A stretch of DNA of 64,000 nt from an uncultured Gemmatimonadales bacterium (GCA_947259315.1 CAMYLR010000008.1:31013-95012), one strand, 5' to 3'; counted from the stretch's first letter, positions 8,001 to 46,667 are shown. The notes: generated from the sequence alone by a model not told the origin. Translations and numbers: made by a program.

Positions 8001-9127
8001 CAGCTCGACGCTTGGCCGGCAGCAGCCCCCACGAGCCGAGACACGACCATATCACCCATTTCAGAGGTCGCGATCCCACTTCGGGCATCGGCCGACGGGA
8101 CATCTCCGCTCTGCAGCAGGTCACCGACTGCACGTTCGATCCGCTGAGCGCCGCTCGCCTCACCCAGGAAGTCGAGCATCATAGAGGTCGCCGAGATCGC
8201 GCCCAACGGGCAGGCGACGTTCTGCCCCGTGTACTTGGGAGCCGACCCGTGGACAGGCTCGAACATCGATGTGCGCCCCGGATGGATATTGCCCGACGCA
8301 GCGATACCCATCCCGCCCTGCAGCATCGCTCCCAGGTCGGTGATGATGTCACCGAACAGGTTCGTCGTAACGATGACATCAAACCACTCCGGGTTCTTCA
8401 CCATCCACATACAGCACGCATCGACGTAGGCATGGTCGGTCTCGATCTCAGGGAAGTCGCGGGCGACGTACTCGTACGCTCGGGTCCACAGATCGTGGGG
8501 TCGAATCGCATTCGCCTTGTCGACCAGGGTGACACGCGCGGGGCGGTCGGGGTTCCCGGCTGCCTCGCGATCCCTCCCCCTCTTTCGCGCCAACTCGAAG
8601 GCGTACCGGCACGCCCGCTCGCACCCTTTCCACGTATAGAGGCCGTTGACGAGCGCGACCTCGTCGGGCGTGTCTTTCTTGAGATGACCGCCGATCTGCG
8701 CGTAGAGCCCTTCGGTATTCTCCCGCACGACGACGAACTCGATGTCGCTAGGCCCCTTGTCCTTGAGTGGACATAGATGTTCGGAGTACAGCTTGATCGG
8801 TCGCAGATTCACATACAGGTCGAGGCCGAAACGAAGACCGAGAATCACTGAGCGCTCGACCAGTCCCGGCTCGACGTCGGGGTGACCGATCGCACCGAGG
8901 AGCACCGCGTCCAGCCCGCGCCACTCCTCGATCACCGATTCGGGTACGAGCTCGCCTGTCTTCAGGTAGTGATCACTGCCGTACTCGTACTCGACGAGCT
9001 CGGTCTGGAACCCCTCGAGCTCGGCCGAAGCGGTGAGGACCTTTACGCCCTCCGCCGCCACTTCGGGGCCGATCCCATCACCGGGAATCACGCCGATTCT
9101 GTATGTGGTCATCGCAGCATCTCGCAC
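8000..9127 (-). CDS. 3-isopropylmalate / tartrate dehydrogenase family (beta-decarboxylating NAD dehydrogenase)
   Basis: TTYRIGVIPGDGIGPEV and NLFGDIITDLGAMLQGGMGIAASGNI. The GTG start is at 9127. An in-frame ATG at 9112 (MTTYRIG...) is the alternative. Confidence 0.8.
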   Translation of the reverse strand: MRDAAMTTYRIGVIPGDGIGPEVAAEGVKVLTASAELEGFQTELVEYEYGSDHYLKTGELVPESVIEEWRGLDAVLLGAIGHPDVEPGLVERSVILGLRFGLDLYVNLRPIKLYSEHLCPLKDKGPSDIEFVVVRENTEGLYAQIGGHLKKDTPDEVALVNGLYTWKGCERACRYAFELARKRGRDREAAGNPDRPARVTLVDKANAIRPHDLWTRAYEYVARDFPEIETDHAYVDACCMWMVKNPEWFDVIVTTNLFGDIITDLGAMLQGGMGIAASGNIHPGRTSMFEPVHGSAPKYTGQNVACPLGAISATSMMLDFLGEASGAQRIERAVGDLLQSGDVPSADARSGIATSEMGDMVVSRLVGAAAGQASS

Positions 9128-10459: not shown

Positions 10460-10924
10460 TCAATGATGGTAGGGCTCACCGCGCACGATCGTCCAAGCGC
10501 GATAGAGCTGCTCAACCAGCACGACCTGTGCCAACTCGTGAGCGAGGGTCTGCGGTCCCAGCGCGATTCTGCGGTCGGCGGCCGCAGTCACCGCTGGCGA
10601 CAGCCCATCCGCCCCACCAACCACAAAAACCGCGCGCCCGATCCCATCCGCGCGCCACTCGTCGAGCAGATTCGCCCAACCCTCCGAGGCCAGCGACTCG
10701 GCCTGCGGTGTAAGCGCCACCAACCGGTCGCGCGGTCCGATCGCAGCGGTCTTGAGAAGGCGTTGGCCTTCCTCGTCCAGCGCCTCCGCACCGGCTTTCT
10801 TTGAAGGCTTGACGTGCTTCCACTGGACTCGACAGTAACGCTCGACTCGAGCCAAGTAATCGGCAACCCCGGATCGCGCCCAATCGCTCCTGAGCTTGTC
10901 GACGGCGATGATTTCGATTTCCAC
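10460..10924 (-). CDS. rlmH: 23S rRNA (pseudouridine1915-N3)-methyltransferase RlmH (SPOUT)
   Basis: IIAVDKLRSDWARSGVADYLARV ... VFVVGGADGLSP ... LVEQLYRAWTIVRGEPYHH aligns along its whole length to RlmH. Confidence 0.9.
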   Translation of the reverse strand: MEIEIIAVDKLRSDWARSGVADYLARVERYCRVQWKHVKPSKKAGAEALDEEGQRLLKTAAIGPRDRLVALTPQAESLASEGWANLLDEWRADGIGRAVFVVGGADGLSPAVTAAADRRIALGPQTLAHELAQVVLVEQLYRAWTIVRGEPYHH

Positions 10925-14498: not shown

Positions 14499-15284
14499 CT
14501 AGACTGTTACTCCCCGCTCGCTCTCACTTATAAACGTGATAAAGCGGACAATCTCCGGGTACGGATGAAGCTCGTCCTTGGCTCGAGCAAGCGCCTGCGT
14601 GATGTTGAGCTTGGAGTTGAAGAAAAGCCGGTAGGCTCGCTTGAGCTCACTCTTGACGTTCTCTGGGAAACCCCTTCGGTCCAGGCCGACTGAGTTGAGC
14701 CCAAACAGTGCCGCTGGATCACCTGCCGCCTTGACGTATGGTGGAACATCCTTCTGGATGCGAGAGCAGCCGCCGATAAAAGCATGCGCGCCGATACGGA
14801 CGAATTGATGCACCGGTGTCATCCCACCGATGATGGCGTTTTCGTCGACGCTGACGTGTCCCGCCAGGTTCACCGCATTTGACAGGATGACGCCGTCGCC
14901 GACCAGGCAATCGTGCGCTACATGGACGTACGCCATGAGCAAACACGCGTCACCGATGCTCGTGTACCCCTGGGCAAGTGTACCGCGGTTCACCGTCGCG
15001 TACTCGCGAATCACTGTGCCGTCGCCGATCACGCACGTGGTCGGCTCGCCCTGGTACTTCAGATCTTGAGGATCGCTCCCCACGACGGCCCCGTAGTGGA
15101 TCTTGCACCGTTCCCCGATCGTAGTGTCACGCTCGATGACCGCGTGTGCCGCTATGCGTGTGCCAGCGCCGATCGTCACGCCAGGACCGATGATCGCATA
15201 CGGGCCGACGGAAACATCGGCACCGATCTGTGCCCCTTCGTCGACGATCGCAGTCGTGTGGATGCTCTCCGTGATCGACTTCAT
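14499..15284 (-). CDS. lpxA: Acyl-ACP--UDP-N-acetylglucosamine O-acyltransferase
   Basis: Left-handed beta-helix hexapeptide repeats; the N-terminus MKSITESIHTTAIVDEGAQIG is typical. The track ORF extends to 15362, overlapping fabZ. The ATG at 15284 gives an ATGA-type junction with lpxC-fabZ. Confidence 0.9.
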   Translation of the reverse strand: MKSITESIHTTAIVDEGAQIGADVSVGPYAIIGPGVTIGAGTRIAAHAVIERDTTIGERCKIHYGAVVGSDPQDLKYQGEPTTCVIGDGTVIREYATVNRGTLAQGYTSIGDACLLMAYVHVAHDCLVGDGVILSNAVNLAGHVSVDENAIIGGMTPVHQFVRIGAHAFIGGCSRIQKDVPPYVKAAGDPAALFGLNSVGLDRRGFPENVKSELKRAYRLFFNSKLNITQALARAKDELHPYPEIVRFITFISESERGVTV

Positions 15285-16633
15285 TTTTCGACCAATGTTG
15301 CCATCAGATCCGCTTCGGCTACAACGGTACCGTCGACGCGAGCCAAACCACGCATCTTGCAATGCGCGCCTCGCCGTCGCACCATCTCGAGTTCGCAGAC
15401 CAGCTGATCCCCAGGTCGAACCGGATGTCTGAACCTGACGTTGTCTAAGCCGGTGAAGTAGACGACCTTTTCCTCGCCTGCATCTACCGAACTCATCAAA
15501 AGCAAACCGCCAACTTGGCCCATGGCCTCGACGATCAGCACCCCCGGCATCACCGGATGACCCGGGAAATGACCCTGGAAGAACGGCTCGCTTATCGTCA
15601 CGTTCTTGATGCCGACGACGCGTTCTCCGTCTTCCATCTCGATGACTCGATCAACGAGCAGGAACGGATAGCGATGTGGGATCGTGTCCAGGATCTGTGA
15701 CACGTCGAGCACGGTCTTCGAAGGCTGATGCTCCGAGACCGCTACTTCTGACTGCCTACCGACATGCGGGCTCGCGTTGTTGCCGTTCTCGCCGGCCATT
15801 CGTCGCTTTAGGATCTGCACCAGCGCCAGGTGGGTCCGGTGGCCGGACCTATGAGCGATAATGTGAGCCTGAATGTCGACGTTTAGAACTTTCAAATCGC
15901 CGAGCAAATCCAGGATCTTGTGACGGACCAGCTCGGTTGGGAATCGGAGTCGTTCTTCACTCAGGATCTCGTCGTCACCGATCACGATCGCATTGCGGAG
16001 ATTGCCACCGCGAATTAGACCAGCTTCTCTCAGCTGTTCGATCTCGCCCAGGAACCCGAATGTCCGAGCGGGCGCGATTTCTTTTTCAAACGTGTCCGGC
16101 GTGATCTCAAACGACTCGAACTGATGTTGGACTAGCGGGTGATCAAAATCGATCGAGAATGAGACTTGTAACCGATCCGAGGGCAGCAGGGTAATCTCGA
16201 CACCACCGTCCTCATAGAAGATCGGTTCCTCGACACGATAACGCTTGCGCTCCGCGTCGAGCTCCGTGAGTCCCGCCTCTTGCAACGCCTTCCAAAACGG
16301 CAAGCTGGATCCGTCTCCTACAGGTGGCTCACTGGAATCGAGTTCAATCCGCAGATTGTCTATGCCTCGCACCGCAAGCGCAGCAAGGACGTGCTCGATC
16401 GTGTGGACTTTGCTACCGTCGATCCCAATCGACGTCCCTCGTTCCACGCCAATTACGTGGTCGGGCTCCACGACGATCTCCGGATGCCCTTCCAGATCGA
16501 TGCGAACAAACCGGATACCAGTGTTCGCCTCCGCGGGAAGAAACGTCATGTGACACTGATTCCCGGTGTGGAGTCCAACTCCGCTATAGGTCACAGGACG
16601 CGCAATGGTGAGTTGCCGCTCGTTACTCGTCAT
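15281..16633 (-). CDS. lpxC-fabZ: Bifunctional UDP-3-O-acyl-GlcNAc deacetylase / (3R)-hydroxyacyl-ACP dehydratase (LpxC-FabZ fusion)
   Basis: N-terminal LpxC (TLLPSDRLQ, HKILDLLGDL, HRSGH). C-terminal FabZ hotdog (RYPFLLVDRV, FFQGHFPGHPVMPGVLIVEAMGQ). Confidence 0.9.
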   Translation of the reverse strand: MTSNERQLTIARPVTYSGVGLHTGNQCHMTFLPAEANTGIRFVRIDLEGHPEIVVEPDHVIGVERGTSIGIDGSKVHTIEHVLAALAVRGIDNLRIELDSSEPPVGDGSSLPFWKALQEAGLTELDAERKRYRVEEPIFYEDGGVEITLLPSDRLQVSFSIDFDHPLVQHQFESFEITPDTFEKEIAPARTFGFLGEIEQLREAGLIRGGNLRNAIVIGDDEILSEERLRFPTELVRHKILDLLGDLKVLNVDIQAHIIAHRSGHRTHLALVQILKRRMAGENGNNASPHVGRQSEVAVSEHQPSKTVLDVSQILDTIPHRYPFLLVDRVIEMEDGERVVGIKNVTISEPFFQGHFPGHPVMPGVLIVEAMGQVGGLLLMSSVDAGEEKVVYFTGLDNVRFRHPVRPGDQLVCELEMVRRRGAHCKMRGLARVDGTVVAEADLMATLVEK

Positions 16634-26890: not shown

Positions 26891-28407
26891 GACTCACCCT
26901 CGTTTTCAACCCGACCCTCCTCGGGACGCAGTGCCGGGAATAGGATGACATCCCTGATGGCCGGTTGATCGGTCAAGAACATCACTAGGCGGTCAATGCC
27001 GATCCCCATACCGGCAGTTGGCGGCATGCCGTACTCAAGAGCTCTCAAGAAATCTTCGTCTACGACGTTCGGCGCCTCCAGGTCACCAGCCGCAGCGAGC
27101 TCGGCTTGATCCTCTAACCGGCGCCGCTGGTCGCGAGGATCATTAAGCTCACTAAAAGCGTTTGCCCATTCGCGCCCAAACAGGTAGGCCTCGAATCGTT
27201 CCACCAGCCGGGGATCGCGTGGGTGAGCCTTGGCCAAGGGCGACGTCAACCGCGGGTGATCAATCACGAACACCGGCCCTTCGAGAGTCGGCTCGACGAG
27301 ATGATCGAAGAGCGCCTCTAGGATCTTGCCCTCTCGCTCTTGTTCCGAGATCTCGATTTCGTGTTGCGCCGCCTCCGCGACCAGAGCTGTCCGTGACAGA
27401 TCGTCGACCGCTACACCGTGGTCGGCTAACGCATTCAAGAAACCGAGCCGTGGCCACGGTGGCGTGACGTCTACGCTCCGACCTTGGTACGTAATCTCGG
27501 CACCACCGGTCACTTCTCCTACCAGACCGACCAAAAGCTCTTCCGCCAGCACCATGAAATCCTCGTAATCGGCGTACGCCTGATAGAACTCGAGCATCGT
27601 GAACTCAGGACTGTGAAACCGATCAATGCCTTCATTGCGGAAGTCCTTGGCCACCTCGTAGACACGCTCGAGCCCCCCAACGATGCACCTTTTCAGATAC
27701 AACTCATCGGCGATACGCAAATACAACGGAACGCCCAGCGCTTGGTGATGGGTCACGAACGGGCGCGCGGTGGCGCCACCATACACCGGTTGCAGAACGG
27801 GCGTCTCGACCTCGAGAAAACCGCGGTTTTCGAGCTCGTCTCTCAGATATCGGATGATCTGTGACCGACGCTCAAAAACTCCCCTGGCCTCCGGCCGGAC
27901 GGCAAGGTCGGCGTAGCGCTGCCGATAACGAAATTCGCGATCGACCACGCGGTGGTACGCCCGATCTCCGTCCTCTGATTCCACGAGCTTCCCAAACGGC
28001 AGCGGCCGCAGAGCCTTCGCCAGCAGCACCGCCTCGCGTACCCGCACGGTGATCTCCCCCGTCCGCGTACGAAATAGATGGCCCGCAACTCCGACAAAGT
28101 CCCCTATATCCAGGTGATCAACCAGACGGTACGCGTCGCCAAGCTCGTCTTGCCGCAGATATGCCTGGACGCGACCTGACCGGTCAGCCACATGAAAGAA
28201 CGTCGTCTTCCCGTGCCGGCGAACGGTCACGACTCGACCCGCGATTCGGCATTCGATGTCCTCCCCTTCGTCCTCGAAGGCCTCGACCAGATCCGCAGCC
28301 GAATCGGTCACCTCCCAGGACGACGGATACGGATCGACACCGATTCGCTCGAGGTCGATCAGTTTCGACAGTCGAACCGATTGAGGATCAGTTTCTCGGT
28401 CAGGCAT
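26887..28407 (-). CDS. lysS: Lysine--tRNA ligase (class II)
   Basis: OB-fold N-domain and class II motifs (FRNEG, GIDRLVMF). Confidence 0.95.
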   Translation of the reverse strand: MPDRETDPQSVRLSKLIDLERIGVDPYPSSWEVTDSAADLVEAFEDEGEDIECRIAGRVVTVRRHGKTTFFHVADRSGRVQAYLRQDELGDAYRLVDHLDIGDFVGVAGHLFRTRTGEITVRVREAVLLAKALRPLPFGKLVESEDGDRAYHRVVDREFRYRQRYADLAVRPEARGVFERRSQIIRYLRDELENRGFLEVETPVLQPVYGGATARPFVTHHQALGVPLYLRIADELYLKRCIVGGLERVYEVAKDFRNEGIDRFHSPEFTMLEFYQAYADYEDFMVLAEELLVGLVGEVTGGAEITYQGRSVDVTPPWPRLGFLNALADHGVAVDDLSRTALVAEAAQHEIEISEQEREGKILEALFDHLVEPTLEGPVFVIDHPRLTSPLAKAHPRDPRLVERFEAYLFGREWANAFSELNDPRDQRRRLEDQAELAAAGDLEAPNVVDEDFLRALEYGMPPTAGMGIGIDRLVMFLTDQPAIRDVILFPALRPEEGRVENEGES

Positions 28408-29523
28408 CAGCTGCTGCTACCGGCTGTCTGCTTCAGATACGCCTCCATGAACTCGATCAGATGTTGCCCCTGGAGCACACCCTCGACATCCGACATCTCA
28501 TACCCCGTTCGGTGGTCCTTGACCATCGTGTATGGATGCAGCACGTACGACCTGATCTGGCTGCCGAACGCGATCTCCTTCTTCTCCGCCTCCAGCTCCT
28601 CGCGTGACTTCTCACGCTCGGCCTTGAGGTACTGGTGTAGCCTCGATCTCAACAGGCGCATGGCGGTCTCACGATTCCGATGTTGACTGCGCTCAGCTTG
28701 ACTCTGAACGACGATGCCTGTCGGGAGGTGAGTGATCCGCACCGCACTGTCCGTCTTGTTCACATGTTGTCCGCCTGCACCGCTGGCGCGATACGTGTCG
28801 ATCTTCAAGTCCTTGTCTACGACCTCTACGTTGATCTCGTCCGCCACATCCGGATAGACAAACACCGAGGCGAAGGAGGTGTGCCGCCGGGCGGCAGAAT
28901 CAAACGGGCTTATGCGCACTAGCCGATGCACGCCTTTCTCCGCTTTGAGGTAGCCGTAGGCGTGGTCACCCTTGACCTCGATCGTGACGCGGTCGATCCC
29001 CGCCTCTTCGCCTTCCTGAATATCGATGATCTGATAAGCGTAGCCGTTGCTCTCAAACCATCGCGTGTACATGCGCATGAGCATCGAGGCCCAATCCTGG
29101 CTCTCAGTGCCACCTGCACCAGGGTGAATGGTGAGGATTGCGTCGCGAGAATCGTCCGCATCGCTCAGCATGCCTCTCAGTTCGAGGCGAGCCAGCCGAT
29201 CGGCGATGCCTCCCTCGAGCGCACCAAACTCGTCCCAAAGAGCAGCCTCTTCCTCACCCTCGAGCAGAGACAGCATCTCACCGGCTTCGTCGACCTCGAC
29301 TCGGAGTGCATCGTACTCTCCGACCCACGACTGGTGTTGCTTGATCTCGGCTAGTATCGCCCGCGCGCGCTCATTATCAACCCAGAAATCCGGCGCCGCG
29401 GACTCCGTCTCGAGCGCGGCTATCCGCTCTCGCTTGGAAGGCAGGTCAAAGATAGCTCCCGAGGAGCTCGAGCCGCTCCTCTAGTTGCGACAATCGGCGG
29501 CGGTGGTCTCGTACGTCACTCAT
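28407..29523 (-). CDS. prfB: Peptide chain release factor 2, made from two frames by programmed +1 ribosomal frameshift (29523..29449 joined to 29447..28407)
   Basis: Frame 0 reads MSDVRDHRRRLSQLEERLELLGSYL then UGA. The sequence tat CTT TGA Cct is the canonical CUU UGA C shift site, with an SD-like GGGAG just upstream. The +1 frame continues DLPSKRERIAALETESAAPDFW... into the 289-aa ORF containing GGQ (SGAGGQHVN) and the SPF motif. Confidence 0.9.
29445..29451 (-). other. prfB programmed +1 frameshift heptamer CUUUGAC
   Basis: Read directly on the minus strand: ...ggg agc tat ctt tga cct gcc... The in-frame UGA sits at codon 26, as in E. coli prfB. Confidence 0.8.
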
Positions 29524-29544: not shown

Positions 29545-30528
29545 TCATGTTTGCCCTTGCTCAGTTATCATGGGGCCGGCGACCGAGGTCTGATGCTCAC
29601 TCATGTCGCCCCGGCGATCGACTACGTACAGTGATCCCTTGAATGACTTGGCGTAGTGCTTCATCTCGGTTGCCAACTCGCTCACTTTCGCGGGGTGCGT
29701 GAACTGGCGCCGCACGTTGGTGACACAACCAATCGACAACGTCATCAACGGTATCTCGCGAACACGCCCCTGCCGGTCTTCGGCGATGTAGAAGCCACGC
29801 TGTCGATCCTGGTCGGGATACTGCAGTGGCATCAGCGTATCGAACGTCTCGATGACTGCGTTGGATACTCGAGCTAAGTCTTCGAACGGCACGGTGTAAA
29901 TAAAGTCGTCCCCACCAATGTGACCCACGAAGCCGCTTGACGATAGCCGCCGCACTATGTCCCGGAGGATCAGGGAGAGGATCCAAATCACCTTGTCACC
30001 GCGCGGATACGAGTAGACGTCGTTGAATTCCTTGAACGAGTCGATGTCAGCGTAGCACACCGCGAACCGCTCACCGCCGGCGATCCTGCGCTCGATCTCA
30101 TGCTGAATGATCTTTGTGCCGGGCAACATCGTGGATGGGTGGACCGCTACATCCCGGGCAACCCGTTTTAGCACCATCCTGAGCCGTAGCCGCTGCTCAC
30201 GGCCAGAGTGGGTGCCGCTCAAGAACTCATCTGCCCCGCTCTGGAAGCCGTTGGCGATCTGTTCGACTTGATGCTCGCGCGACATGAACACGATCGGGAC
30301 GACCGAGTTGAACGGATCCGCCTTGAGTCGCTCGCACAGCTCCGAGGCGATCGCGAAATTGTCATCGGCGTCAAGCACGACGAGATCCACGATCCCCCGA
30401 TCGAGCGCCTGTCGGACCTCAACGGCGGTCTCGAGCGGGACGATGTCGCCGCCTTCTTCCTCGACAAATCGCTCCAGCGACTCGGGCGTGCGCAACGCAT
30501 GCGACAGATAGAGCACCCTGAGGCTCAT
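29545..30528 (-). CDS. Response regulator receiver + GGDEF domain protein (diguanylate cyclase-like; GGDDF variant)
   Basis: N-terminal receiver-like fold (DLVVLDADDN) without the N-terminal acidic pair. C-terminal GGDEF domain with HIGGDDFIY and RYGGDEF-type flanking motifs (FAVCYADIDSFKEFND). Confidence 0.8.
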   Translation of the reverse strand: MSLRVLYLSHALRTPESLERFVEEEGGDIVPLETAVEVRQALDRGIVDLVVLDADDNFAIASELCERLKADPFNSVVPIVFMSREHQVEQIANGFQSGADEFLSGTHSGREQRLRLRMVLKRVARDVAVHPSTMLPGTKIIQHEIERRIAGGERFAVCYADIDSFKEFNDVYSYPRGDKVIWILSLILRDIVRRLSSSGFVGHIGGDDFIYTVPFEDLARVSNAVIETFDTLMPLQYPDQDRQRGFYIAEDRQGRVREIPLMTLSIGCVTNVRRQFTHPAKVSELATEMKHYAKSFKGSLYVVDRRGDMSEHQTSVAGPMITEQGQT

Positions 30529-40089: not shown

Positions 40090-40688
40090 ATGCGGGTCAC
40101 GCCAAACACGACGCCCCCAACCGGTGTGAACACAAGAAGCAGCAGGACGATGATCAAGCCGTAACGACCCGTTGACTGATACGAATAGGCCATCGGACGC
40201 GGCAGGAAGTTGGCTACCACGTGCGAGCCGTCCAGCGGGGGCACAGGCAGCATATTGAACACCGCCAGGATGAAATTGATGAAGATCCCGTACTCGCAAA
40301 GCAACTGAATCCCCGGCGATATAGCCCCGCCAGAGATAACCCGAGTGACAAACAGAGCGGCAGCAAACGCGAATGCCAGCAGGATGTTCGACGCCGGACC
40401 CGCCAACGATACGGTAATATCTCCCCACTTGCGGTCGCGGAAGTTCTCCAGCGTGACCGGTACCGGCTTGGCCCAACCAAACAGTATGCTCGAGCCACTC
40501 AATAACAGGAACAGCGGCACCAGAATCGAGCCAAAGAGGTCGATGTGTGGGACCGGGTTTAGGGTCAGCCGCCCGAGCATCCGTGCCGTGGGATCCCCCC
40601 ACCACTCAGCCACGTACCCGTGAGCGTACTCATGCACGATCACCGAAAAGAGCAGAACCGGCAGCAGGAAAACAAGCGATTCGTTCAT
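40047..40688 (-). CDS. Site-2 protease family (peptidase M50) membrane metalloprotease
   Basis: HEYAHG (HExxH), NMLPVPPLDG (LDG motif), and multiple TM segments. Confidence 0.8.
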   Translation of the reverse strand: MNESLVFLLPVLLFSVIVHEYAHGYVAEWWGDPTARMLGRLTLNPVPHIDLFGSILVPLFLLLSGSSILFGWAKPVPVTLENFRDRKWGDITVSLAGPASNILLAFAFAAALFVTRVISGGAISPGIQLLCEYGIFINFILAVFNMLPVPPLDGSHVVANFLPRPMAYSYQSTGRYGLIIVLLLLVFTPVGGVVFGVTRIWTWTMVRLALGIG

Positions 40689-40843
40689 GACATCGGAGAG
40701 TTAAGGTGTGATGGGCCCAGAGAGTCGCACGCGCGCGGCAACTGCGAGTACCTTAACCTATGCTTGCTTGGAGCGAGGTGTCAAAACGGCTGGCCAGGGT
40801 CCCGTTGCCGAACCGTCCACGGCGGTCTATCTTGCTGACCCAC

Positions 40844-40870
40844 TTTGGATTACGTTTTCAAATATTATTT
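40844..40870 (+). promoter_or_regulatory. Candidate promoter of rpsT: TTTG ... TATTATTT (a Bacteroidetes-style -33/-7 arrangement)
   Basis: cacTTTGgattacgttttcaaaTATTATTTctgcgaggaaccATG lies in an otherwise GC-rich genome. The spacing is approximate and no TSS data are available. Confidence 0.3.
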
Positions 40871-40882
40871 CTGCGAGGAACC

Positions 40883-41143
40883 ATGCCGAACGTGAAGTCT
40901 GCCGCCAAACGCGCCCGTACAAACGACCGGCGTCGCCTGCAAAACCGCGATGCCCGCTCGCGTCTTCGTACCGCCATCAAGAAGGTCCGTCAGGCCGGCT
41001 CGAGCGAAGACGCCAGGTCGGCTCTTCGAGATGCGGAGAGCCTGCTCGACCGCTTGACCGGTCGGGGAATCATCCACAAGAACGCCGCCGCCCGGCACAA
41101 ATCTCGTCTAAGCGCGCACGTAGCCAAGCTCGAAGCGCGCTAG
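40883..41143 (+). CDS. rpsT: 30S ribosomal protein S20
   Basis: MPNVKSAAKRARTNDRRRLQNRDARSRLRTAIKKV... The track ORF has a spurious 41-codon 5' extension. Confidence 0.9.
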   Translation: MPNVKSAAKRARTNDRRRLQNRDARSRLRTAIKKVRQAGSSEDARSALRDAESLLDRLTGRGIIHKNAAARHKSRLSAHVAKLEAR

Positions 41144-41937
41144 CGATCCCCTTCGCCGTTGAGCGTGTCGCGCACGATCTCGGCGATTCCACGTCGTACC
41201 TCAGCGCTCCCCGAGGCGAGCCCACCAGGGTAATCACGCTCGGCCAAAGGCTCGATATCGGTGACTGCACAACCCGGATTTTGAACCCCCGAGCCATATG
41301 CATCCAGCGTCATCAGCTGGTCGACCTCCTGGCGCGACAATCGATTGACGTTCCCGAGCAGGTGCGCGACCAATAGTGATCGCGCCGCCTGTTCGAGAGA
41401 CTCCATGACGTTGATCGAAACCGCCAACGAACTCCCGTAGGCAACCGCCCCGTGGTTGGCGAGCAGAAGCGCGTCGTGGGCTCTGACGTACGGTGCCAGC
41501 TGTTCCGCCAGCTCATCGGTGGACGGTGTCCCGTACGGGACGATCGGTACCCAACCCAGTGTGGCGATGATCTCCGGAATAACGCACTCGTTGAGGGATT
41601 GACCCGCAATGGCAAAACCGGTCGCGATGGGTGGATGGGCGTGGACGATCGCTGCAACGTCACTACGCAGTTCGTAGATCTTCAGATGCATCTTCAACTC
41701 ACTCGATGGTCGACCGGTCCCCGCTAACCGCTGGCCGGCCATGTCGGTAACCACCAGCGACTCGGGTGCGAGAAACCCCTTGCTGACCCCGGACGGGGTG
41801 GCTAGCACCCTCGCCTTGTCTAACCGGACTGATATGTTGCCCTCCGCACCGCCCACTAATCCGCGCCCATACAGCCGACGTCCAACCTCGACCATCTCGG
41901 CTCGCGTCCGTTCCAGGGTCTCGGCTGGATTCGCCAT
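41140..41937 (-). CDS. Class II aldolase/adducin family protein (fuculose-1-phosphate aldolase / MtnB-like)
   Basis: GNISVRLD, IVHAHPP and metal-binding His residues. Its start overlaps the rtcB stop. Confidence 0.75.
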   Translation of the reverse strand: MANPAETLERTRAEMVEVGRRLYGRGLVGGAEGNISVRLDKARVLATPSGVSKGFLAPESLVVTDMAGQRLAGTGRPSSELKMHLKIYELRSDVAAIVHAHPPIATGFAIAGQSLNECVIPEIIATLGWVPIVPYGTPSTDELAEQLAPYVRAHDALLLANHGAVAYGSSLAVSINVMESLEQAARSLLVAHLLGNVNRLSRQEVDQLMTLDAYGSGVQNPGCAVTDIEPLAERDYPGGLASGSAEVRRGIAEIVRDTLNGEGDR

Positions 41938-43385
41938 TATCCCTTTACAACCCCAATCGGCTTGAGCTCAGCCACGCGGCGGCTCACTCCAGCCGCCTCC
42001 ATCACCTCGACCACGTCCGCAACGTCCTTATACGCATGCGGCATCTCCTCAGCCACCGTTCGCATGCCCGTCGCCCTGACCACGACCCCCTTGGCCTCCA
42101 TTTCCCCGATCAAATCACGTCCACGAGAGCGTTTCTTGGACTGTGTACGACTCATCTTACGACCGGCGCCATGACACGTGGAGCCGAAGGTCTTCTCCAT
42201 CGCACCGGCCGCCCCCGCACAGACGTAGGAGTAGTTACCCATGCTACCCGGTACCAACACGGGTTGCCCAACGTCGCGGTACGCTGGCGGTACCTCTGCA
42301 TGTCCTGCTGGGAACGCTCGCGTTGCGCCTTTCCGGTGAACGCACACTGACATTCTCCGTCCATCGAGCTCGTGCTCCTCGATCTTGGCGATGTTGTGAC
42401 AGACATCGTAGACGAGCCGCATGCCCAGCCTAGCCGCGGGAAGGCGAAAGATCTCTTGAAAAGCTTCGCGGACCTTGTGCAACATGACCTGTCGGTTGCA
42501 CCAAGCGTAGTTGGCCGCACACCTCATGGCGCCCAAATAAGAGCGACCGTCGGGTGAGTCGAGCGGCGCTGCAGCGAGCTGAACATCGGGCAGCCGATAG
42601 CCGAAGTCCGCGAGCCGGGGCCGAATTCTCTTGAGTGAGTCATCACAAACCTGATAGCCCAACCCCCGCGACCCGGAGTGGATCATTACCACGATTTGAT
42701 CCGGAAACAGCCCATAGGCGTTAGCCAGGGTGGTGTCAAACAATCGAGCCACCCGCTGCACCTCGAGAAAGTGGTTGCCGGATCCCAGCGTGCCAACCTG
42801 CCCGAGCCCGCGCTTCTTGGCACGATCAGAGACGCAGTCGGGATCGGCGCCGCCCAGACGACCTCCGGCCTCTGTGTGTTCGAGATCGAGCGTGTCTCCA
42901 TAACCCTGCTCGATGGCCCACCGGGATCCGTTCACGAGCACGTTTTCCAGGTCGCCCCGAGATAGCTTGCGGATAGCACCCGATGCTCCAACGCCACTGG
43001 GCACGAGTTGATACAACCGATCGATGAGCGATCGACGCACCGTGTCATCGAGATCAGCGAACACCAGATCGCTGCGCGCCAAACGAACGCCGCAATTGAT
43101 GTCGTATCCCACACCACCGGGTGAAATGGCACCACTTCGCGCGTCGGTGGCGGCGACACCACCGATCGGAAATCCGTAGCCCCAGTGGATATCGGGCATC
43201 GCCAGCGACCACCCGACGACACCCGGCAGGCAGGCGACATTGCGGACCTGCTCGAGGCTATGATCGGTCCGAATCGCGGCCATGAGCTCTTCGGATGCGA
43301 ATATTCGTCCCGGTACATGCATCTCACCGGTCTTTGGGATCTCCCAGAGATAGGGTTCGATCTTTTTGACTTCGATTTCGTTCAT
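41937..43385 (-). CDS. rtcB: RNA-splicing ligase RtcB (3'-phosphate/5'-OH RNA ligase)
   Basis: GYDINCGVR, GSGNHF, HSGSRGLG, a nucleophilic His region (STCHGAGR), and a metal-binding Cys. Confidence 0.9.
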   Translation of the reverse strand: MNEIEVKKIEPYLWEIPKTGEMHVPGRIFASEELMAAIRTDHSLEQVRNVACLPGVVGWSLAMPDIHWGYGFPIGGVAATDARSGAISPGGVGYDINCGVRLARSDLVFADLDDTVRRSLIDRLYQLVPSGVGASGAIRKLSRGDLENVLVNGSRWAIEQGYGDTLDLEHTEAGGRLGGADPDCVSDRAKKRGLGQVGTLGSGNHFLEVQRVARLFDTTLANAYGLFPDQIVVMIHSGSRGLGYQVCDDSLKRIRPRLADFGYRLPDVQLAAAPLDSPDGRSYLGAMRCAANYAWCNRQVMLHKVREAFQEIFRLPAARLGMRLVYDVCHNIAKIEEHELDGRRMSVCVHRKGATRAFPAGHAEVPPAYRDVGQPVLVPGSMGNYSYVCAGAAGAMEKTFGSTCHGAGRKMSRTQSKKRSRGRDLIGEMEAKGVVVRATGMRTVAEEMPHAYKDVADVVEVMEAAGVSRRVAELKPIGVVKG

Positions 43386-43402
43386 GCGGTTAGAAATTGG
43401 CG

Positions 43403-43840
43403 CTACACGTCGAAAATGACCCGTGCCCTCCAGAGCACGTTCCCAGCAGTCTCCTTGTGGTCAAAGGCGAGTTGATGATACGTCACGGCTTTGAGTTCAC
43501 TCGCCTCGGCTAAACGCTCGGCCGACACCGAGACTCCCTTCACCAACCCGACGCACCCCTCGGGATCGACCGCGGAGACTTGGGACTCGAGCGCCACGAA
43601 GCTCTCTTCCTCGAGCAGTCGATAGAGTTCCTCACACCACGCTTTGAGCAAATCCGGGTAGCCGTCAGCGGTCACCACGACCGCGCGCTCTGCATCGGAT
43701 ACGAGATCTGAGGTGTCGGCCATCAGCAGGCAGGTCAGACCGCGCTGGGCAGCCTCCAGCACCTCGGCCGGAGACTCTCCCTCCAAGTCGAGGCCGACGT
43801 CAGCCGTGTGGTCGATCTCGACGAACTTGCCGGGTGTCAC
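43403..43840 (-). CDS. Archease (RtcB activator)
   Basis: 145 aa with the N-terminal conserved DHTADVG motif (EIDHTADVGL), as in archeases. Confidence 0.8.
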   Translation of the reverse strand: MTPGKFVEIDHTADVGLDLEGESPAEVLEAAQRGLTCLLMADTSDLVSDAERAVVVTADGYPDLLKAWCEELYRLLEEESFVALESQVSAVDPEGCVGLVKGVSVSAERLAEASELKAVTYHQLAFDHKETAGNVLWRARVIFDV

Positions 43841-43908
43841 ACTGGCATGTTAGGGGTGGAAACGGTCGGCAGCAACCGCGATGTGGTGTGGGGCACGTAG
43901 TCTAGCGA

Positions 43909-44952
43909 TTAGACGATTCGCAGCTTCTCGCCATGGCCAGGGGGATCTTCGTGATCACCCAGATGCAGCGATTCGAGATTGGCACCCAACGACCGGTAGC
44001 AACGCCGGGCTTCGCGCCACGCCTCGAGTGCTTCTTGGCTTCTGTCCTGCCCAATTAGAAGCTCTCCCAACTCCGCCCAAGCCTCGGCTTCACAGTTTGG
44101 CGCGCGACCATCGGCGCACATCTCGAGGGCCCGTTTCAGGCTTTTCTCGGCTTCGGCGAACTCTCCCATTCGACCAGCGATCGACCCTAGCACGAACACC
44201 GTCTCGGCCTCGAGCGAGTTGCTGCTAAACCACTCGCAAAAGGATTGCACTGTCTTAGCCAACGTGTGGGCGCGAATCAAATCCCCTTGATCGAGCGCCA
44301 ACCGGGCGCGATTCAGCATGACTTTCGCCCCCAGGTAGAGATCGAGGCGCCGTTTGCACTTGTCCACTGCGCGATCGAATAGCGCGTCCGCCTCATCGAT
44401 CCGCCCCAGACCCGCCAACACGGTCCCCATGTTGCTGAGCAATCGCGGTCCGCAATTGTCGTAGTCCAACTCCTCAAAACGGGATAGCGCCCAATCGAGC
44501 GACTCCGTTGCGCGCTGACGATCTCCAAGTGCCGTCCACAGCAGACCCTCGTTGGTTTCGATCTCGACCAGCAAACGCTCGTCACCAATCGTTCCCGCAT
44601 GCTCCCTGGCGACACCGTAGCGCCGGCTCGCTTCGTGCCAGTTGCCGCGCTCGTACTCGATCACCCCGAGCAGATTCTCGGCCTCGGCCAACAGCCGCTC
44701 ATCGCCGAGGTTCGCCGCCACGTCTCGACTCGCGAGAACGTCCTCGACAGCTCGATCCCACTGACCGAGTCGCATCCGAATCTCGGCCGCCTCACGCCAA
44801 GCATTGGAGCACGTTTGTTCGCAATCCGGCACTTTGGCTGCCATCTCGGCGGCGGCGGTAAACTCTGACAGCGCCTCGTTCAGCCGCCGACGACTGATCG
44901 CCGCGCGCGCCCTTTCCATCGCTTGAGTGGCTGCATCTCGTGTGGGTACCAT
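43909..44952 (-). CDS. Tetratricopeptide-repeat protein
   Basis: Multiple TPR-like helical repeats with A/L/E/W/Y periodicity. First gene downstream of the sigma-54 promoter. Confidence 0.7.
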   Translation of the reverse strand: MVPTRDAATQAMERARAAISRRRLNEALSEFTAAAEMAAKVPDCEQTCSNAWREAAEIRMRLGQWDRAVEDVLASRDVAANLGDERLLAEAENLLGVIEYERGNWHEASRRYGVAREHAGTIGDERLLVEIETNEGLLWTALGDRQRATESLDWALSRFEELDYDNCGPRLLSNMGTVLAGLGRIDEADALFDRAVDKCKRRLDLYLGAKVMLNRARLALDQGDLIRAHTLAKTVQSFCEWFSSNSLEAETVFVLGSIAGRMGEFAEAEKSLKRALEMCADGRAPNCEAEAWAELGELLIGQDRSQEALEAWREARRCYRSLGANLESLHLGDHEDPPGHGEKLRIV

Positions 44953-45004
44953 GTGAAGCCTTCATCCGTTGACCGGGGGTCAAAGGGGGTACCCGGGAAA
45001 CGTC

Positions 45005-45019
45005 GCAACCCTTGTGCCA
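45005..45019 (-). promoter_or_regulatory. Sigma-54 (-24/-12) promoter: TGGCAC-N5-TTGC
   Basis: The reverse complement of 45001..45020 is ctGGCACaagggTTGCgacg. It matches the TGGCACG-N4-TTGCW consensus with exact GG/GC spacing. It lies about 50 nt upstream of the TPR gene ATG (44952). Confidence 0.55.
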
Positions 45020-45048
45020 GCCTCTCTCGAAAACGCGCTAAGAGGCTG
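45018..45048. repeat. Perfect 8-bp inverted repeat, CAGCCTCT-N15-AGAGGCTG, abutting the -24 element
   Basis: Read directly: cagcctct ctcgaaaacgcgcta agaggctg. There is no U-tract, so it looks more like an operator/UAS than an intrinsic terminator. Confidence 0.5.
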
Positions 45049-45162
45049 ATCCGTAGCAGTATAACTGAAGCAGATCAAGCATCGATTGAGATGCCGGCAC
45101 GCAGGGTGTGCTGGATTGTGCCGGGACGAGACGTGCTGGCCCGGCTCACCGCGTCAGGGACG

Positions 45163-45750
45163 TCAGGAGCGGCGGAGATCGTACTTCTCGATCTTCCGCT
45201 TGAGACGTGGTCGGCTGATACCGAGTTCGCGCGCAGCGGCGGTGCGGTTCCAATCGTTTCTCTGGAGCGCGAAAGCGATAATGCGCTTCTCGTACTCATC
45301 AAATCGAAGACCACCGGGTGGAACGGCGACAGTGAAGCTATTGGTCTCACTCACTGATCTGGTCGCATTGGACCACCCGGTATGCAGATCGTCGATCGCG
45401 GCGGTCAGACGGCCACGATCATGCGGCAACGCGAAATAGTCCTTAGCCCCACCGGTGAGCGCTTGCACCGCCGAATCGGCGGTCGGTTGCCGGGTAACCG
45501 CGAGCACCGCTGGTTGTGGTGTTCTGCCAACGATATCTGCGAGTATCTGGCCCGAGTACTCACCGACAAAGTCGAGGTCTAGGACTACCAGATCAACCTC
45601 CGGGGGGAGCGAACCACTGCCTCCCGCCTTGTGAAACACGCATTGGAGATTTGGCGCTCGGGGCACCAGCTCAGCGTACTCGGTCGCTGCGCCGTAGACC
45701 GCAACGCGGTAGGGCGGTGGAACGCTGTTGCTCAGCTCACCCCGAGCCAC
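45163..45750 (-). CDS. Two-domain regulator: atypical receiver-like domain + Fis-type HTH (NtrC-family C-terminus), with no AAA+ sigma-54 activation domain
   Basis: C-terminal FALQRNDWNRTAAARELGISRPRLKRKIEKY (Fis/NtrC HTH). Receiver-like beta3-beta5 with DLVVLDLDF, AVT and AKDYFALP, but no N-terminal acidic pair. Confidence 0.7.
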   Translation of the reverse strand: MARGELSNSVPPPYRVAVYGAATEYAELVPRAPNLQCVFHKAGGSGSLPPEVDLVVLDLDFVGEYSGQILADIVGRTPQPAVLAVTRQPTADSAVQALTGGAKDYFALPHDRGRLTAAIDDLHTGWSNATRSVSETNSFTVAVPPGGLRFDEYEKRIIAFALQRNDWNRTAAARELGISRPRLKRKIEKYDLRRS

Positions 45751-45970
45751 AACTGGGCATGAGCCTGAACCTGACCGCCGATCGGCAGTGCCGGGTCCAG
45801 CACACGACGATCTACATCCGTCTCCAGCCTGACTGCGGCAGATTTCGGCAGATCGTGCGCCAGGTAAAAGGCTACGCGCCTAGCAACATCGCCGGCGGAT
45901 AGGTCGTGATCGACAACATCGGAGATTGCACGCTCGCCAAATCGAACCACGAGCGGCAACGGTGGACGGC

Positions 45971-46213
45971 TCACGCCGGCTTTTCGTCGACCAATGTCTC
46001 TGTTTCCGATTCGATGTCGGGTTCGGTTGCCGAGTACTGCTCGGTCCGCCGTTCATCGAGCTCAGATTCCAAGTTGTCGATCCGTTCCCCACCGAGCTCG
46101 AACAACTCACTGATCTTCTCGAGCACCAACTGGCGAGTTTCTCTGCCCGCCAGAGGGGCCACGAAGATCCCGACCCCGACCCCAACAACGAACGCTTTCA
46201 CTCTCGCAAACAT
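45971..46213 (-). CDS. YtxH-like small membrane protein (DUF948)
   Basis: N-terminal TM GVGVGIFVAPLAGRETRQLVLEKISEL, followed by an acidic tail. Confidence 0.45.
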   Translation of the reverse strand: MFARVKAFVVGVGVGIFVAPLAGRETRQLVLEKISELFELGGERIDNLESELDERRTEQYSATEPDIESETETLVDEKPA

Positions 46214-46244
46214 GACTGCTCCTTCAGTGCGCCGAGCTTCGGCG

Positions 46245-46667
46245 CTACGACCTGGTCTTCAATAAGTCGCGGATTTCACCCAGCAAGACCTCCTGCTTGG
46301 GCGGCTCCGCCGGTGCCTCTTCTTCCTTCTTCTTGGCCCGATTGACATTCCGGATCACGAGGAAGACCGAGAACGCGACGATGACAAACGTGATGATGTG
46401 GTTGACGAACATCCCCCAGTTGAGGGTTACCGCGCCCGCTTCGTGTGCCGCTTCGACGGTCGCGTAAGGCCCCGCCGGCGAGCCCTGGCTCAGGACTGCG
46501 AAGAAGTTGGCGAAATCGACCCCGCCAAGCGCCAATCCAATCGGCGGCATGAGCACGTCCGCGACCAAAGAGCCGATCACCGTCGCAAACGCCGCGCCGA
46601 TGATGATACCAACCGCCATATCGAGCATGCTGCCCTTCATGGCGAACTCCTTAAACTCGTTTAGCAC
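46245..46667 (-). CDS. mscL: Large-conductance mechanosensitive channel
   Basis: (V)LNEFKEFAMKGSMLDMAVGIIIGAAF...IMPPIGLALGGVDF...LLGEIRDLLK aligns along its full length with E. coli MscL. GTG start at 46667 with GGAGG 7 nt upstream. The track ORF is over-extended to 46736. Confidence 0.9.
   Translation of the reverse strand: MLNEFKEFAMKGSMLDMAVGIIIGAAFATVIGSLVADVLMPPIGLALGGVDFANFFAVLSQGSPAGPYATVEAAHEAGAVTLNWGMFVNHIITFVIVAFSVFLVIRNVNRAKKKEEEAPAEPPKQEVLLGEIRDLLKTRS

What the first reader, a model, noticed from the sequence alone, without database searches (positions are those of the whole stretch)
41140..45051. rtcB-archease operon (TPR gene first, class II aldolase last) behind a canonical sigma-54 promoter
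ctGGCACaagggTTGCg, on the minus strand at 45005..45019, matches TGGCACG-N4-TTGCW with exact spacing. It sits about 50 nt upstream of the TPR gene. The TPR gene heads TPR-archease-rtcB-aldolase; the rtcB stop and the aldolase start overlap.

Sigma-54 control of rtcB is conserved (E. coli RtcR). Here, though, no RtcR (CARF-AAA+-HTH) or rtcA is present, and the operon content (TPR, archease, aldolase) differs. This suggests a rewired RNA-repair/stress module.
Basis: partly seen in the sequence, partly recalled or inferred. Interest (0 to 1): 0.6.

Follow-up and report, generated by a model that had tools for sequence, protein, structure and literature searches.

The report
Sigma-54 rtcB operon, activator lost its motor
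A Gemmatimonadota RNA-ligase operon (TPR, archease, rtcB, aldolase) sits behind a sigma-54 promoter conserved across its relatives, but the activator gene next to it has lost the ATPase domain that sigma-54 promoters need.

Summary
TGGCACAAGGGTTGC lies at 45005-45019 on the minus strand. It is the only exact match in the window (0.09 expected). It sits 53 nt upstream of TPR-archease-rtcB-aldolase, and rtcB and the aldolase gene overlap by one base (TAATG).

Comparison with about 20 related Gemmatimonadota loci makes the promoter convincing. A GG-N10-GC element sits at the equivalent intergenic position in every lineage where that sequence is available. In 11 of 11 loci with a riboswitch it starts 46-66 nt upstream of the aptamer.

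In many relatives the gene directly upstream is a dedicated sigma-54 activator: an atypical receiver domain, an AAA+ domain with a GAFTDA motif, and HTH_8. There the operon is larger. It adds a c-di-GMP-I riboswitch, a lipoprotein, a TPR-HD-GYP protein and DegV.

The window gene at 45163-45750 is the positional ortholog of that activator. It keeps the receiver-like and HTH_8 domains, but the whole AAA+ module is gone. It is under purifying selection (dN/dS 0.13), and the promoter and an upstream enhancer-like block are still conserved.

So the ATPase must come from a gene elsewhere, which I could not find, or the promoter now serves another role. This is a new variant of sigma-54 control of rtcB, not an RtcR system.

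The parts
45004..45019 (-). Sigma-54 type -24/-12 promoter element TGGCACAAGGGTTGCG. The transcription start is predicted near 44993, giving a 5' UTR of about 41 nt.
   Evidence: Sequence. It is the only exact match in the window (0.09 expected). 13 of 15 positions are invariant across five lineages whose flanking sequence has diverged. An equivalent element is present in all related loci where that sequence is available.
45108..45133 (-). Conserved upstream block (CG..TC.T.C..GCACAA..C...AC), centred about 100 nt upstream of the -24 GG. It is a candidate enhancer (UAS) for the HTH_8 domain.
   Evidence: These are the invariant columns of alignment A2 across the window, L081, L084, L103 and L095. 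Relatives carry GTAACG/CGTTAC-type inverted repeats at the same place. Binding is inferred, not shown.
45163..45750 (-). 195-aa regulator: an atypical receiver domain plus a Fis-type HTH_8. It is a sigma-54 activator ortholog that lacks the entire AAA+ module.
   Evidence: Pfam gives HTH_8 at 1.7e-12 and Response_reg at 26.5 bits, below the cutoff. The AF2 model has pLDDT 84 and shows a receiver fold plus a 3-helix HTH. The best PDB match is the REC-HTH_8 protein 3rqi. Both ends align with 453-476-aa activators P0039-P0056. Synteny is identical. dN/dS is 0.13.
43909..44952 (-). TPR repeat protein (347 aa), first gene of the operon. Its role is unknown; it may be a scaffold or regulator.
   Evidence: Pfam TPR_12, TPR_2 and others. 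It belongs to a small family of 12 clusters, always next to archease-rtcB. dN/dS is about 0.10.
43403..43840 (-). Archease, the RtcB cofactor.
   Evidence: Pfam Archease 3.5e-22, full length. Its role as an RtcB activator comes from PMC3973293 and PMC4604427.
41937..43385 (-). RtcB 3'-phosphate/5'-hydroxyl RNA ligase.
   Evidence: Pfam RtcB 2.5e-168, positions 1-426 of 426. The conserved metal-binding and guanylylation motifs GYDINCG, GSGNHF, HSGSRG, CHNIA and TCHGAGR are visible in the translation.
41140..41937 (-). Class II aldolase/adducin-family enzyme (265 aa), probably translationally coupled to rtcB through the TAATG overlap. Substrate unknown.
   Evidence: Pfam Aldolase_II 2.1e-47. It falls below every NCBIfam subfamily cutoff; the best match is 3-oxo-tetronate-4-phosphate decarboxylase at 141 bits against a cutoff of 250. 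It is linked to rtcB in L083, L084, L086-L088, L105 and L106, but not in L103.
45732..46213 (-). Context: two small genes, a YtxH-like gene (45971-46213) and an 80-aa ORF with no Pfam match (45732-45974). They form an overlapping string with the regulator gene.
   Evidence: The same pair precedes the regulator or the operon in L081, L084, L087, L095, L103, L105 and L106.

Best explanation
The promoter at 45004-19 (minus strand) is a working sigma-54 (-24/-12) promoter. It transcribes TPR-archease-rtcB-aldolase as one unit in a Gemmatimonadota genome. RtcB with archease is an RNA-repair or RNA-splicing ligase. This part is inferred from strong comparative evidence.

The operon family has its own NtrC-family enhancer-binding protein, encoded immediately upstream. 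It consists of an atypical receiver domain, an AAA+ domain with a GAFTDA motif, and HTH_8. It would bind an enhancer about 100 nt upstream of the promoter.

In the window's lineage this gene has lost the whole AAA+ ATPase (about 270 residues). It survives as a selected 195-aa receiver-HTH_8 protein. This is shown by sequence, synteny and a structure model.

Sigma-54 open-complex formation needs an AAA+ ATPase. So I infer that activation is supplied by an activator encoded elsewhere, outside the 64 kb. The AAA+-less protein would still occupy the conserved enhancer block and modulate access, as a competitor (anti-activator) or as a tether or architectural factor. This last step is speculative.
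For: 1. The motif is exact, unique in the window and intergenic. No sigma-70-like promoter is found in 40600-46400.

2. It is conserved. The AAA+-less lineages carry TGGCATAAGGGTTGCG (L081), TGGCATGAGGGTTGCT (L084), TGGCACGAGGGTTGCT (L095) and TGGCACGAGGGTTGCC (L103). Meanwhile dS between the window and L084 is about 0.8, and most of the remaining intergenic sequence is not conserved across the five lineages.

3. In the wider clade a GG-N10-GC element scoring at least 8 of 11 starts 46-66 nt upstream of the c-di-GMP-I aptamer in 11 of 11 riboswitch-bearing loci. The background rate is 0.585 per kb per strand, or about 0.012 per locus for that 21-nt interval.

4. Most of the 13 sites scoring 10 or more in 480 kb scanned are this promoter.

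5. Directly upstream in L089, L093, L105 and L106, and partly in L088 and L091, lies a Sigma54_activat + AAA_lid_14 + HTH_8 protein. Inverted repeats lie between that gene and the promoter.

6. GAFTDA is listed among the motif variants judged compatible with activation (PMC4641369).

7. The window's 195-aa protein aligns with both ends of these activators. Its closest non-self relatives among 1.84 billion representatives are full-length activators (2e-47), not generic REC-HTH_8 regulators (about 1e-9).

8. The chromosomal neighbourhood is identical, and dN/dS is 0.13.
Against: - No AAA+ activator and no rpoN lie in the 64 kb. I could not examine the rest of the genome, so the trans activator is hypothetical.
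- Losing the cis activator is also what one would expect if sigma-54 control had been abandoned.
- A relative (L088) has an activator whose GAFTGA loop is deleted. This shows that the regulator decays repeatedly in this family.
- There is no transcript or TSS data.
- The window's enhancer block has no clear dyad symmetry.
- No terminator separates the upstream gene string from the operon, so read-through is possible.
Confidence: 0.6

Rival explanations
1. Sigma-54 control has been given up in this lineage. The receiver-HTH_8 protein now works like a RegA/PrrA/ActR-type regulator on a sigma-70-type promoter, or the operon is read through from the YtxH-p80-regulator string. The -24/-12 element is a relic, or a poised or roadblock site for sigma-54 holoenzyme.
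For: The AAA+ module is gone. The architecture and the best PDB hit match REC-HTH_8 regulators (3rqi). There is no terminator between the regulator gene and the promoter. L088 shows independent decay of the activator.
Against: A relic should decay, yet the element keeps 13 of 15 positions in five AAA+-less lineages whose regulators are only 41-93% identical and whose flanks have diverged. These are the best consensus matches in the whole family. No sigma-70-like -35/-10 was found. The conserved upstream block sits about 100 nt from the promoter, which is enhancer distance rather than class I/II activator distance.
Confidence: 0.28
2. The motif is a chance match in a 61% GC genome, and the operon has an ordinary housekeeping promoter.
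For: With one mismatch allowed, the window has 3 matches against 3.6 expected. A single exact match occurs in 9 of 100 shuffles.
Against: The motif keeps its position across about 20 related loci, and sigma-54 activator genes sit next to it. The two 1-mismatch sites are intragenic.
Confidence: 0.03
3. This is a divergent RtcR-type system: RNA-repair control by sensing of damaged tRNA through a CARF domain.
For: rtcB lies behind a sigma-54 promoter next to an HTH_8 regulator, as in E. coli and Salmonella (PMC9650030, PMC7790460). The regulator's HTH has a weak PADLOC hit to an RtcR_PspF2 model (E 5e-4).
Against: The N-terminal domain has a receiver fold, not CARF. The full-length relatives score 309 bits against the NCBIfam RtcR cutoff of 650, and only over AAA+ and HTH. 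No rtcA was found. The regulator is co-directional with the operon.
Confidence: 0.02

Closest known systems
RtcR-rtcBA RNA-repair operon of E. coli and Salmonella (sigma-54 dependent; CARF-AAA+-HTH activator)
   Same: rtcB is transcribed from a -24/-12 promoter, and a dedicated NtrC-family regulator gene with a Fis-type HTH lies next to it.
   Different: There is no CARF domain and no rtcA. Archease, a TPR protein and a class II aldolase accompany rtcB instead. The regulator is co-directional with the operon. In the window the regulator has no AAA+ domain at all. Relatives add a c-di-GMP-I riboswitch.
Archease-RtcB 'tRNA splicing operon' (PMC3973293, PMC4604427)
   Same: The archease and rtcB genes are adjacent, here 17 nt apart. 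56 of the 80 GTDB rtcB loci examined also have an archease hit, in all but one of them upstream of rtcB and usually adjacent.
   Different: Those 80 loci show no consistent sigma-54 motif, TPR gene or aldolase gene. The regulatory layer is specific to this Gemmatimonadota clade.
RegA/PrrA/ActR-type response regulators (REC + HTH_8, about 185 aa; e.g. PDB 3rqi)
   Same: The two-domain architecture and size are the same. 3rqi is the best match by both PDB sequence and fold.
   Different: By descent the window protein belongs to a sigma-54 activator lineage: 2e-47 to full-length activators against about 1e-9 to generic REC-HTH_8 proteins. Its receiver lacks the acidic pair and the conserved Lys. 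It still sits in front of a conserved sigma-54 promoter.
NtrC/AtoC-family bacterial enhancer-binding proteins
   Same: The receiver-like N-terminus and the HTH_8 C-terminus are homologous to them, and the gene sits upstream of its target sigma-54 promoter.
   Different: The defining AAA+ sigma-54 interaction domain is absent in the window protein.
c-di-GMP-I (GEMM-I) riboswitch, Rfam RF01051 / RF03167
   Same: It is present in the orthologous leader of 11 related loci, downstream of the same promoter.
   Different: It is absent from the window. The window's 5' UTR is only about 41 nt, and the riboswitch-controlled lipoprotein gene is also missing.

Membership tests
Sigma-54 dependent promoter | GG at -24 and GC at -12 separated by exactly 10 nt, with flanks matching TGGCAC-N5-TTGC | tested here: met
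   TGGCACAAGGGTTGC at 45005-45019 (-).
Sigma-54 dependent promoter | Intergenic, correctly oriented, a short distance upstream of the first gene | tested here: met
   It ends 53 nt before the TPR ATG, inside a 210-nt gap.
Sigma-54 dependent promoter | Conserved at orthologous positions in related genomes | tested here: met
   All related loci with upstream sequence carry it. 11 of 11 riboswitch loci have it 46-66 nt upstream of the aptamer.
Sigma-54 dependent promoter | A cognate AAA+ enhancer-binding protein is available | tested here: inconclusive
   It is present next to the operon in relatives. In the window the adjacent ortholog lacks AAA+, and none is found in the 64 kb. The rest of the genome could not be reached.
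Sigma-54 dependent promoter | rpoN in the genome; transcription start 12 nt downstream of the GC | not testable with these tools
   rpoN is not in the window. Sigma-54 activators annotated as Gemmatimonadota do exist. There is no transcript data.
RtcR-type RNA repair regulation | Activator with an N-terminal CARF domain | tested here: not met
   The N-terminus has a receiver fold.
RtcR-type RNA repair regulation | rtcA cyclase in the operon | tested here: not met
   The operon genes are TPR, archease, rtcB and aldolase. No RTC-family hit appears among the large window ORFs.
Bacterial enhancer-binding protein (NtrC family) | Central AAA+ Sigma54_activat domain with a GAFTGA-type loop | tested here: not met
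   The window protein has 195 aa and no AAA+ hit. Relatives P0039-P0056 have the domain, with GAFTDA.
Bacterial enhancer-binding protein (NtrC family) | C-terminal Fis-type HTH_8, and homology to family members outside the AAA+ domain | tested here: met
   HTH_8 scores 1.7e-12. The last ~60 residues are 52-64% identical to the L093 activator in tblastn, and up to 77% to other activators of the family. The receiver part is about 50% identical to P0042 and P0159.
RegA/PrrA/ActR-type REC-HTH_8 response regulator | Receiver fold followed by HTH_8, about 180-200 aa | tested here: met
   AF2 model with pLDDT 84; Foldseek and phmmer both give 3rqi as the best hit.
RegA/PrrA/ActR-type REC-HTH_8 response regulator | Canonical phospho-acceptor pocket (acidic pair after beta-1, Asp after beta-3, Thr/Ser after beta-4, Lys after beta-5) | tested here: not met
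   Asp (VLDLD) and Thr (AVTR) are kept. The acidic pair is replaced (VYGAAT), and the Lys is replaced (FALP rather than KP). This reading comes from alignments A3/A4 and the model. The Pfam Response_reg score is below the cutoff.
RtcB RNA ligase | Full-length RtcB domain with the conserved Cys/His metal and guanylylation motifs | tested here: met
   561 bits, positions 1-426 of 426; the motifs were read in the translation.
Class II aldolase / adducin family | Aldolase_II domain, and assignment to a subfamily of known substrate | tested here: inconclusive
   The domain is met at 2.1e-47. Every NCBIfam equivalog is below its cutoff, so the substrate is unknown.
c-di-GMP-I riboswitch | Rfam RF01051 or RF03167 match above gathering score in the operon leader | tested here: not met
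   There is none in the window. It is met in 11 related loci.

The most novel reading that the evidence does not exclude
Sigma-54 activation here is split between two proteins. A selected, AAA+-less enhancer-binding remnant (atypical receiver plus HTH_8) stays on the enhancer. It either recruits or gates a separately encoded AAA+ activator that may lack its own DNA-binding specificity, or it acts as a dedicated anti-activator of an RNA-repair operon. As far as I know from memory, and in the few text searches I ran, this arrangement has not been described for sigma-54 promoters. It may have arisen more than once in Gemmatimonadota.
Probability: 0.25. Interest if true: 0.8.

Novelty: new variant of a known kind. 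Interest (0 to 1): 0.62.

Why it matters
Sigma-54 control of rtcB is known only through RtcR, mostly in Proteobacteria. This locus shows a second, unrelated activator lineage coupled to archease-rtcB in a poorly studied phylum. In relatives it is layered with a c-di-GMP riboswitch and an HD-GYP protein, which points to a link between second-messenger signalling and RNA ligation. My text search on these terms found no paper making that link.

The window's lineage is also a natural experiment. The promoter and enhancer are conserved, but the cis activator has lost the one domain that sigma-54 absolutely requires. Working out how this promoter fires would show whether enhancer binding and ATPase function can be divided between proteins. 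If it does not fire, the question becomes why the promoter is kept.

Tried and rejected
1. 80 GTDB loci found with RtcB (52-61% identity). Archease-rtcB is common there, but there is no TPR gene, aldolase gene, receiver-HTH gene or consistent sigma-54 motif. They are too distant to test this promoter.

2. Exact-sequence look-ups of the window's TPR and RtcB proteins to recover the source contig. Neither is on record. The species is also absent from the GTDB representatives. The rest of the genome could therefore not be searched for rpoN or activators.

3. Sigma-70 and terminator scan of 40600-46400. It found no promoter-like site, and the terminator-like hits are at chance level and intragenic.

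4. RNA fold of the 57-nt leader. The z-score is -1.6, so there is no evidence of structure.

5. Rfam on the whole window. It found only a tRNA.

6. Inverted-repeat search in the window's upstream block. There is no clear dyad. A 9-nt hairpin (45117-45148) is not conserved in L081.

7. PADLOC. The operon is not a known defence system.

8. Single versus repeated loss of the AAA+ domain. A first NJ tree grouped the AAA+-less proteins. With more sequences and a bootstrap, that grouping has only 8-16% support, so the question is unresolved.

9. An RtcR reading was rejected.

10. The 1-mismatch sigma-54-like sites at 10519 and 15151 are intragenic, so I treat them as chance.
Full report
**Observation**

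On the minus strand the sequence is ggcTGGCACaagggTTGCgacg. TGGCAC lies at 45019-45014 and TTGC at 45008-45005, so the invariant GG and GC are separated by exactly 10 nt. The exact pattern TGGCAC-N5-TTGC occurs once in the 64-kb window on both strands, against 0.09 expected from shuffles. With one mismatch there are three sites against 3.6 expected. The other two, at 10519 and 15151, lie inside ORFs: an RlmH-like ORF and the ORF at 14499-15362.

The site sits in a 210-nt intergenic gap and ends 53 nt before the ATG at 44952. Pfam confirms the four genes downstream on the same strand:
- TPR, 43909-44952
- archease, 43403-43840
- RtcB, 41937-43385 (561 bits, full length)
- class II aldolase, 41140-41937

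The rtcB stop and the aldolase start share one base, TAATG. No sigma-70-like promoter is found between 40600 and 46400.

**Organism and neighbourhood**

The window is 61% GC and carries housekeeping genes: Lpx genes, BamA, ClpC, aminoacyl-tRNA synthetases, Fab genes, GAPDH-PGK-TIM-SecG and ScpAB. Close homologs of the regulator, and of the related activators, are labelled Gemmatimonadota in NCBI records.

Neither rpoN, RtcR, RtcA nor any AAA+ sigma-54 activator is in the window.

**Is the promoter real?**

80 GTDB loci recovered with RtcB (52-61% identity) were too distant to help. 56 of them have an archease hit, in all but one of them upstream of rtcB and usually adjacent. None has the TPR, aldolase or regulator gene beside rtcB (one locus has a weak TPR hit 6 kb away on the other strand), and there is no consistent -24/-12 motif.

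The TPR protein defines a small family of 12 clusters. Its contigs, together with a metagenome scan, gave the orthologous loci.

Close relatives (TPR 85-93% identical; L081-L085, L090) have identical gene order. They keep TGGCATAAGGGTTGCG or TGGCATGAGGGTTGCT, although synonymous divergence from the window reaches dS of about 0.8.

Two much more distant lineages, with regulators only 41-44% identical, carry TGGCACGAGGGTTGCT (L095) and TGGCACGAGGGTTGCC (L103) at the same place. In a five-way alignment of the intergenic regions, only two blocks are invariant:
- the -24/-12 element, with 13 of 15 positions invariant
- a block about 100 nt upstream, at window 45108-45133

In the remaining relatives (TPR 31-56% identical) the operon starts with an extra lipoprotein gene, which I call p181. 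A GG-N10-GC element lies about 200 nt upstream of it.

Rfam shows why the leader is so long. A c-di-GMP-I riboswitch (RF01051 or its GGC variant RF03167) sits in it in L087, L089, L091, L093-L097, L099 and L101 and in L105 and L106. I measured spacing in 11 of these loci, taking L093 and not its near-duplicate L094. In 11 of 11 the sigma-54-like element starts 46-66 nt upstream of the aptamer. Such elements occur at 0.585 per kb per strand in these sequences, which is about 0.012 per locus for that interval. Most of the 13 sites scoring 10 or more out of 11 in the 480 kb scanned are this promoter. Chance is excluded.

**The activator**

In L088, L089, L091 and L093 the gene ending just upstream of the promoter is a Sigma54_activat + AAA_lid_14 + HTH_8 protein. 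Those contigs cut its N-terminus off.

Full-length orthologs (P0039-P0056, 453-476 aa, 73-96% identical to the L093 fragment) have an N-terminal domain of about 130 residues with no precomputed Pfam receiver hit, then an AAA+ domain with a GAFTDA loop, then HTH_8. GAFTDA is listed among the variants judged compatible with activation in the Desulfovibrio sigma-54 regulome study (PMC4641369).

Two long contigs (L105, L106) show the complete arrangement:
- GAPDH-PGK-TIM-SecG
- YtxH and the p80 ORF
- hydantoinase A and B
- the activator
- inverted repeats, then the -24/-12 element, then the c-di-GMP-I riboswitch
- the p181 lipoprotein
- TPR, and in L106 a TPR-HD-GYP protein
- archease, RtcB, aldolase, DegV
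- S20 (reverse strand), M50 peptidase, TrpRS, ScpAB

This is the window's neighbourhood gene for gene.

In the window, the position of the activator is occupied by a 195-aa gene at 45163-45750. Its C-terminal 60 or so residues are 52-64% identical to the L093 activator's linker and HTH in tblastn, and up to 77% identical to other activators of the family. Its N-terminal 130 or so residues are about 50% identical to the activators' N-terminal domain. The roughly 270 residues of AAA+ and lid in between are simply absent.

Among 1.84 billion representative proteins, its best non-self matches are full-length activators (P0042 at 2e-47, P0159 at 7e-43, each matched in two stretches). Generic REC-HTH_8 regulators score only about 1e-9. 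It is therefore a derived sigma-54 activator, not a member of the RegA/PrrA lineage by descent. Its architecture and its best PDB match (3rqi) are nevertheless of that type.

An AlphaFold model (pLDDT 84) shows a receiver fold, a long helix and a three-helix HTH. The receiver is atypical in both the short and the long proteins. The Asp after strand 3 and the Thr after strand 4 are kept. The acidic pair and the conserved Lys are missing. Phosphorylation is therefore doubtful.

The short gene is not a pseudogene. It occurs in at least five well-supported groups of 160-209 aa, and dN/dS is 0.13. Whether the AAA+ module was lost once or several times is unresolved, because bootstrap support for a single clade is only 8-16%. 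In L088 the activator has instead lost only the GAFTGA loop, so decay of this activator recurs in the family.

**Mechanism**

Shown:
- a conserved -24/-12 element and an upstream block
- a dedicated activator next to the operon in relatives
- an AAA+-less ortholog under selection in the window

Established knowledge: sigma-54 holoenzyme forms a closed complex and cannot initiate without ATP hydrolysis by an AAA+ activator (PMC3162934, PMC4987338).

Inference: because the element is maintained in all AAA+-less lineages, and is closer to consensus there than in lineages with the full activator, it is still used. The ATPase must then be supplied by a gene elsewhere. The 195-aa protein most likely still binds the conserved block. 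It could act as a competitor or anti-activator, or as a tether or architectural factor. I cannot tell these apart.

The main rival is that sigma-54 control was abandoned. The protein would then act like a RegA/PrrA-type regulator, or the operon would be read through from the upstream gene string, since no terminator was found. The maintained motif argues against this, but does not exclude a poised or roadblock role.

**What the operon does**

RtcB with archease is a 3'-phosphate/5'-hydroxyl RNA ligase pair (PMC3973293, PMC4604427). All the conserved RtcB motifs are present.

The TPR protein is universal in this operon family. It is paralogous to the TPR part of the TPR-HD-GYP protein of relatives. 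Its role is unknown, and a regulatory or scaffold role is a guess.

The aldolase-family protein has an intact domain but reaches no subfamily cutoff. It is linked to rtcB in most lineages but not all: L103 has TatD instead.

None of the proteins matches a known defence system.

**Comparison and novelty**

The locus works like the RtcR-rtcBA system in using sigma-54 and a neighbouring HTH_8 regulator. It fails the defining RtcR features: CARF, rtcA and, in the window, AAA+.

I searched the paper library for rtcB or archease together with sigma-54, c-di-GMP or riboswitches. No hit described this arrangement. The search was on word matches and is not exhaustive.

I rate it a new variant of a known kind. 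The AAA+-less activator in front of a conserved sigma-54 promoter is the surprising element. The c-di-GMP riboswitch link in relatives is a second lead.

Noticed in passing
L087 1197-1286; L089 1035-1126; L091 638-726; L093 2167-2254; L094 304-391; L095 2142-2230; L096 1234-1322; L097 149-235; L099 309-397; L101 1762-1851; L105 11611-11698; L106 11652-11742: In related loci a c-di-GMP-I riboswitch (in L087 and L096 the best match is the GGC variant RF03167) lies between the sigma-54 promoter and a 177-183-aa lipoprotein gene that has no Pfam family. This gene heads the rtcB operon. I found no paper linking c-di-GMP riboswitches to rtcB.
   Followed up: partly
L086 1640-3232; L087 2954-4534; L106 13566-15176; also L089, L099: Many relatives carry a 526-536-aa TPR + HD_5 (HD-GYP type) protein between the TPR gene and archease. 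It suggests c-di-GMP turnover encoded inside the same operon. It is absent from the window.
   Followed up: partly
L088 3-758: The activator next to the operon in this relative has lost the GAFTGA loop: ELFG is followed by SDGAGGGAG. It scores only 70 bits on Sigma54_activat, yet a CGGCACGCAGGTTGCC element is still present downstream. This is a second route of activator decay in the family.
   Followed up: partly
window 45732-45974 (-) and 45971-46213 (-): An 80-aa ORF with no family match overlaps both the YtxH-like gene and the regulator gene. It is conserved at this position in all lineages, whether the regulator is long, short or absent (L087). Its function is unknown.
   Followed up: no
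L093 1180-1195 and 1191-1859: This relative has two tandem copies of the lipoprotein gene. The first is preceded by its own sigma-54-like element (CGGCACGGCCTATGCT) but has no riboswitch. Only the second copy has the riboswitch.
   Followed up: no
window 41140-41143: The aldolase gene (-) and the ribosomal protein S20 gene (+) converge, and their ends overlap by 4 nt. No terminator-like structure was detected on either strand.
   Followed up: no
window 29545-30528 (-): A 327-aa protein with a weak, partial GGDEF domain (E 1e-9) lies 11 kb from the operon. It is the only c-di-GMP-related gene seen in the window.
   Followed up: no
window 28407-29276 (-): This release-factor ORF (PCRF + RF-1 domains) is only 289 aa, and its PCRF match starts at profile position 77. 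That fits the usual programmed +1 frameshift of prfB, with the N-terminal part in another frame.
   Followed up: no
window 2215-4572 (+): A single 785-aa ORF combines an EgtD-like histidine methyltransferase domain with DinB_2 and FGE-sulfatase (EgtB-like) domains. It looks like a fused ergothioneine-pathway enzyme.
   Followed up: no
L045 7024-7911 (+), rtcB at 8001: In one of the distant GTDB loci (a Desulfotignum MAG), a sigma-54 activator homolog ends about 90 nt upstream of rtcB on the same strand. Activator-rtcB adjacency therefore also occurs outside the Gemmatimonadota clade. I did not check whether it is RtcR-like.
   Followed up: no
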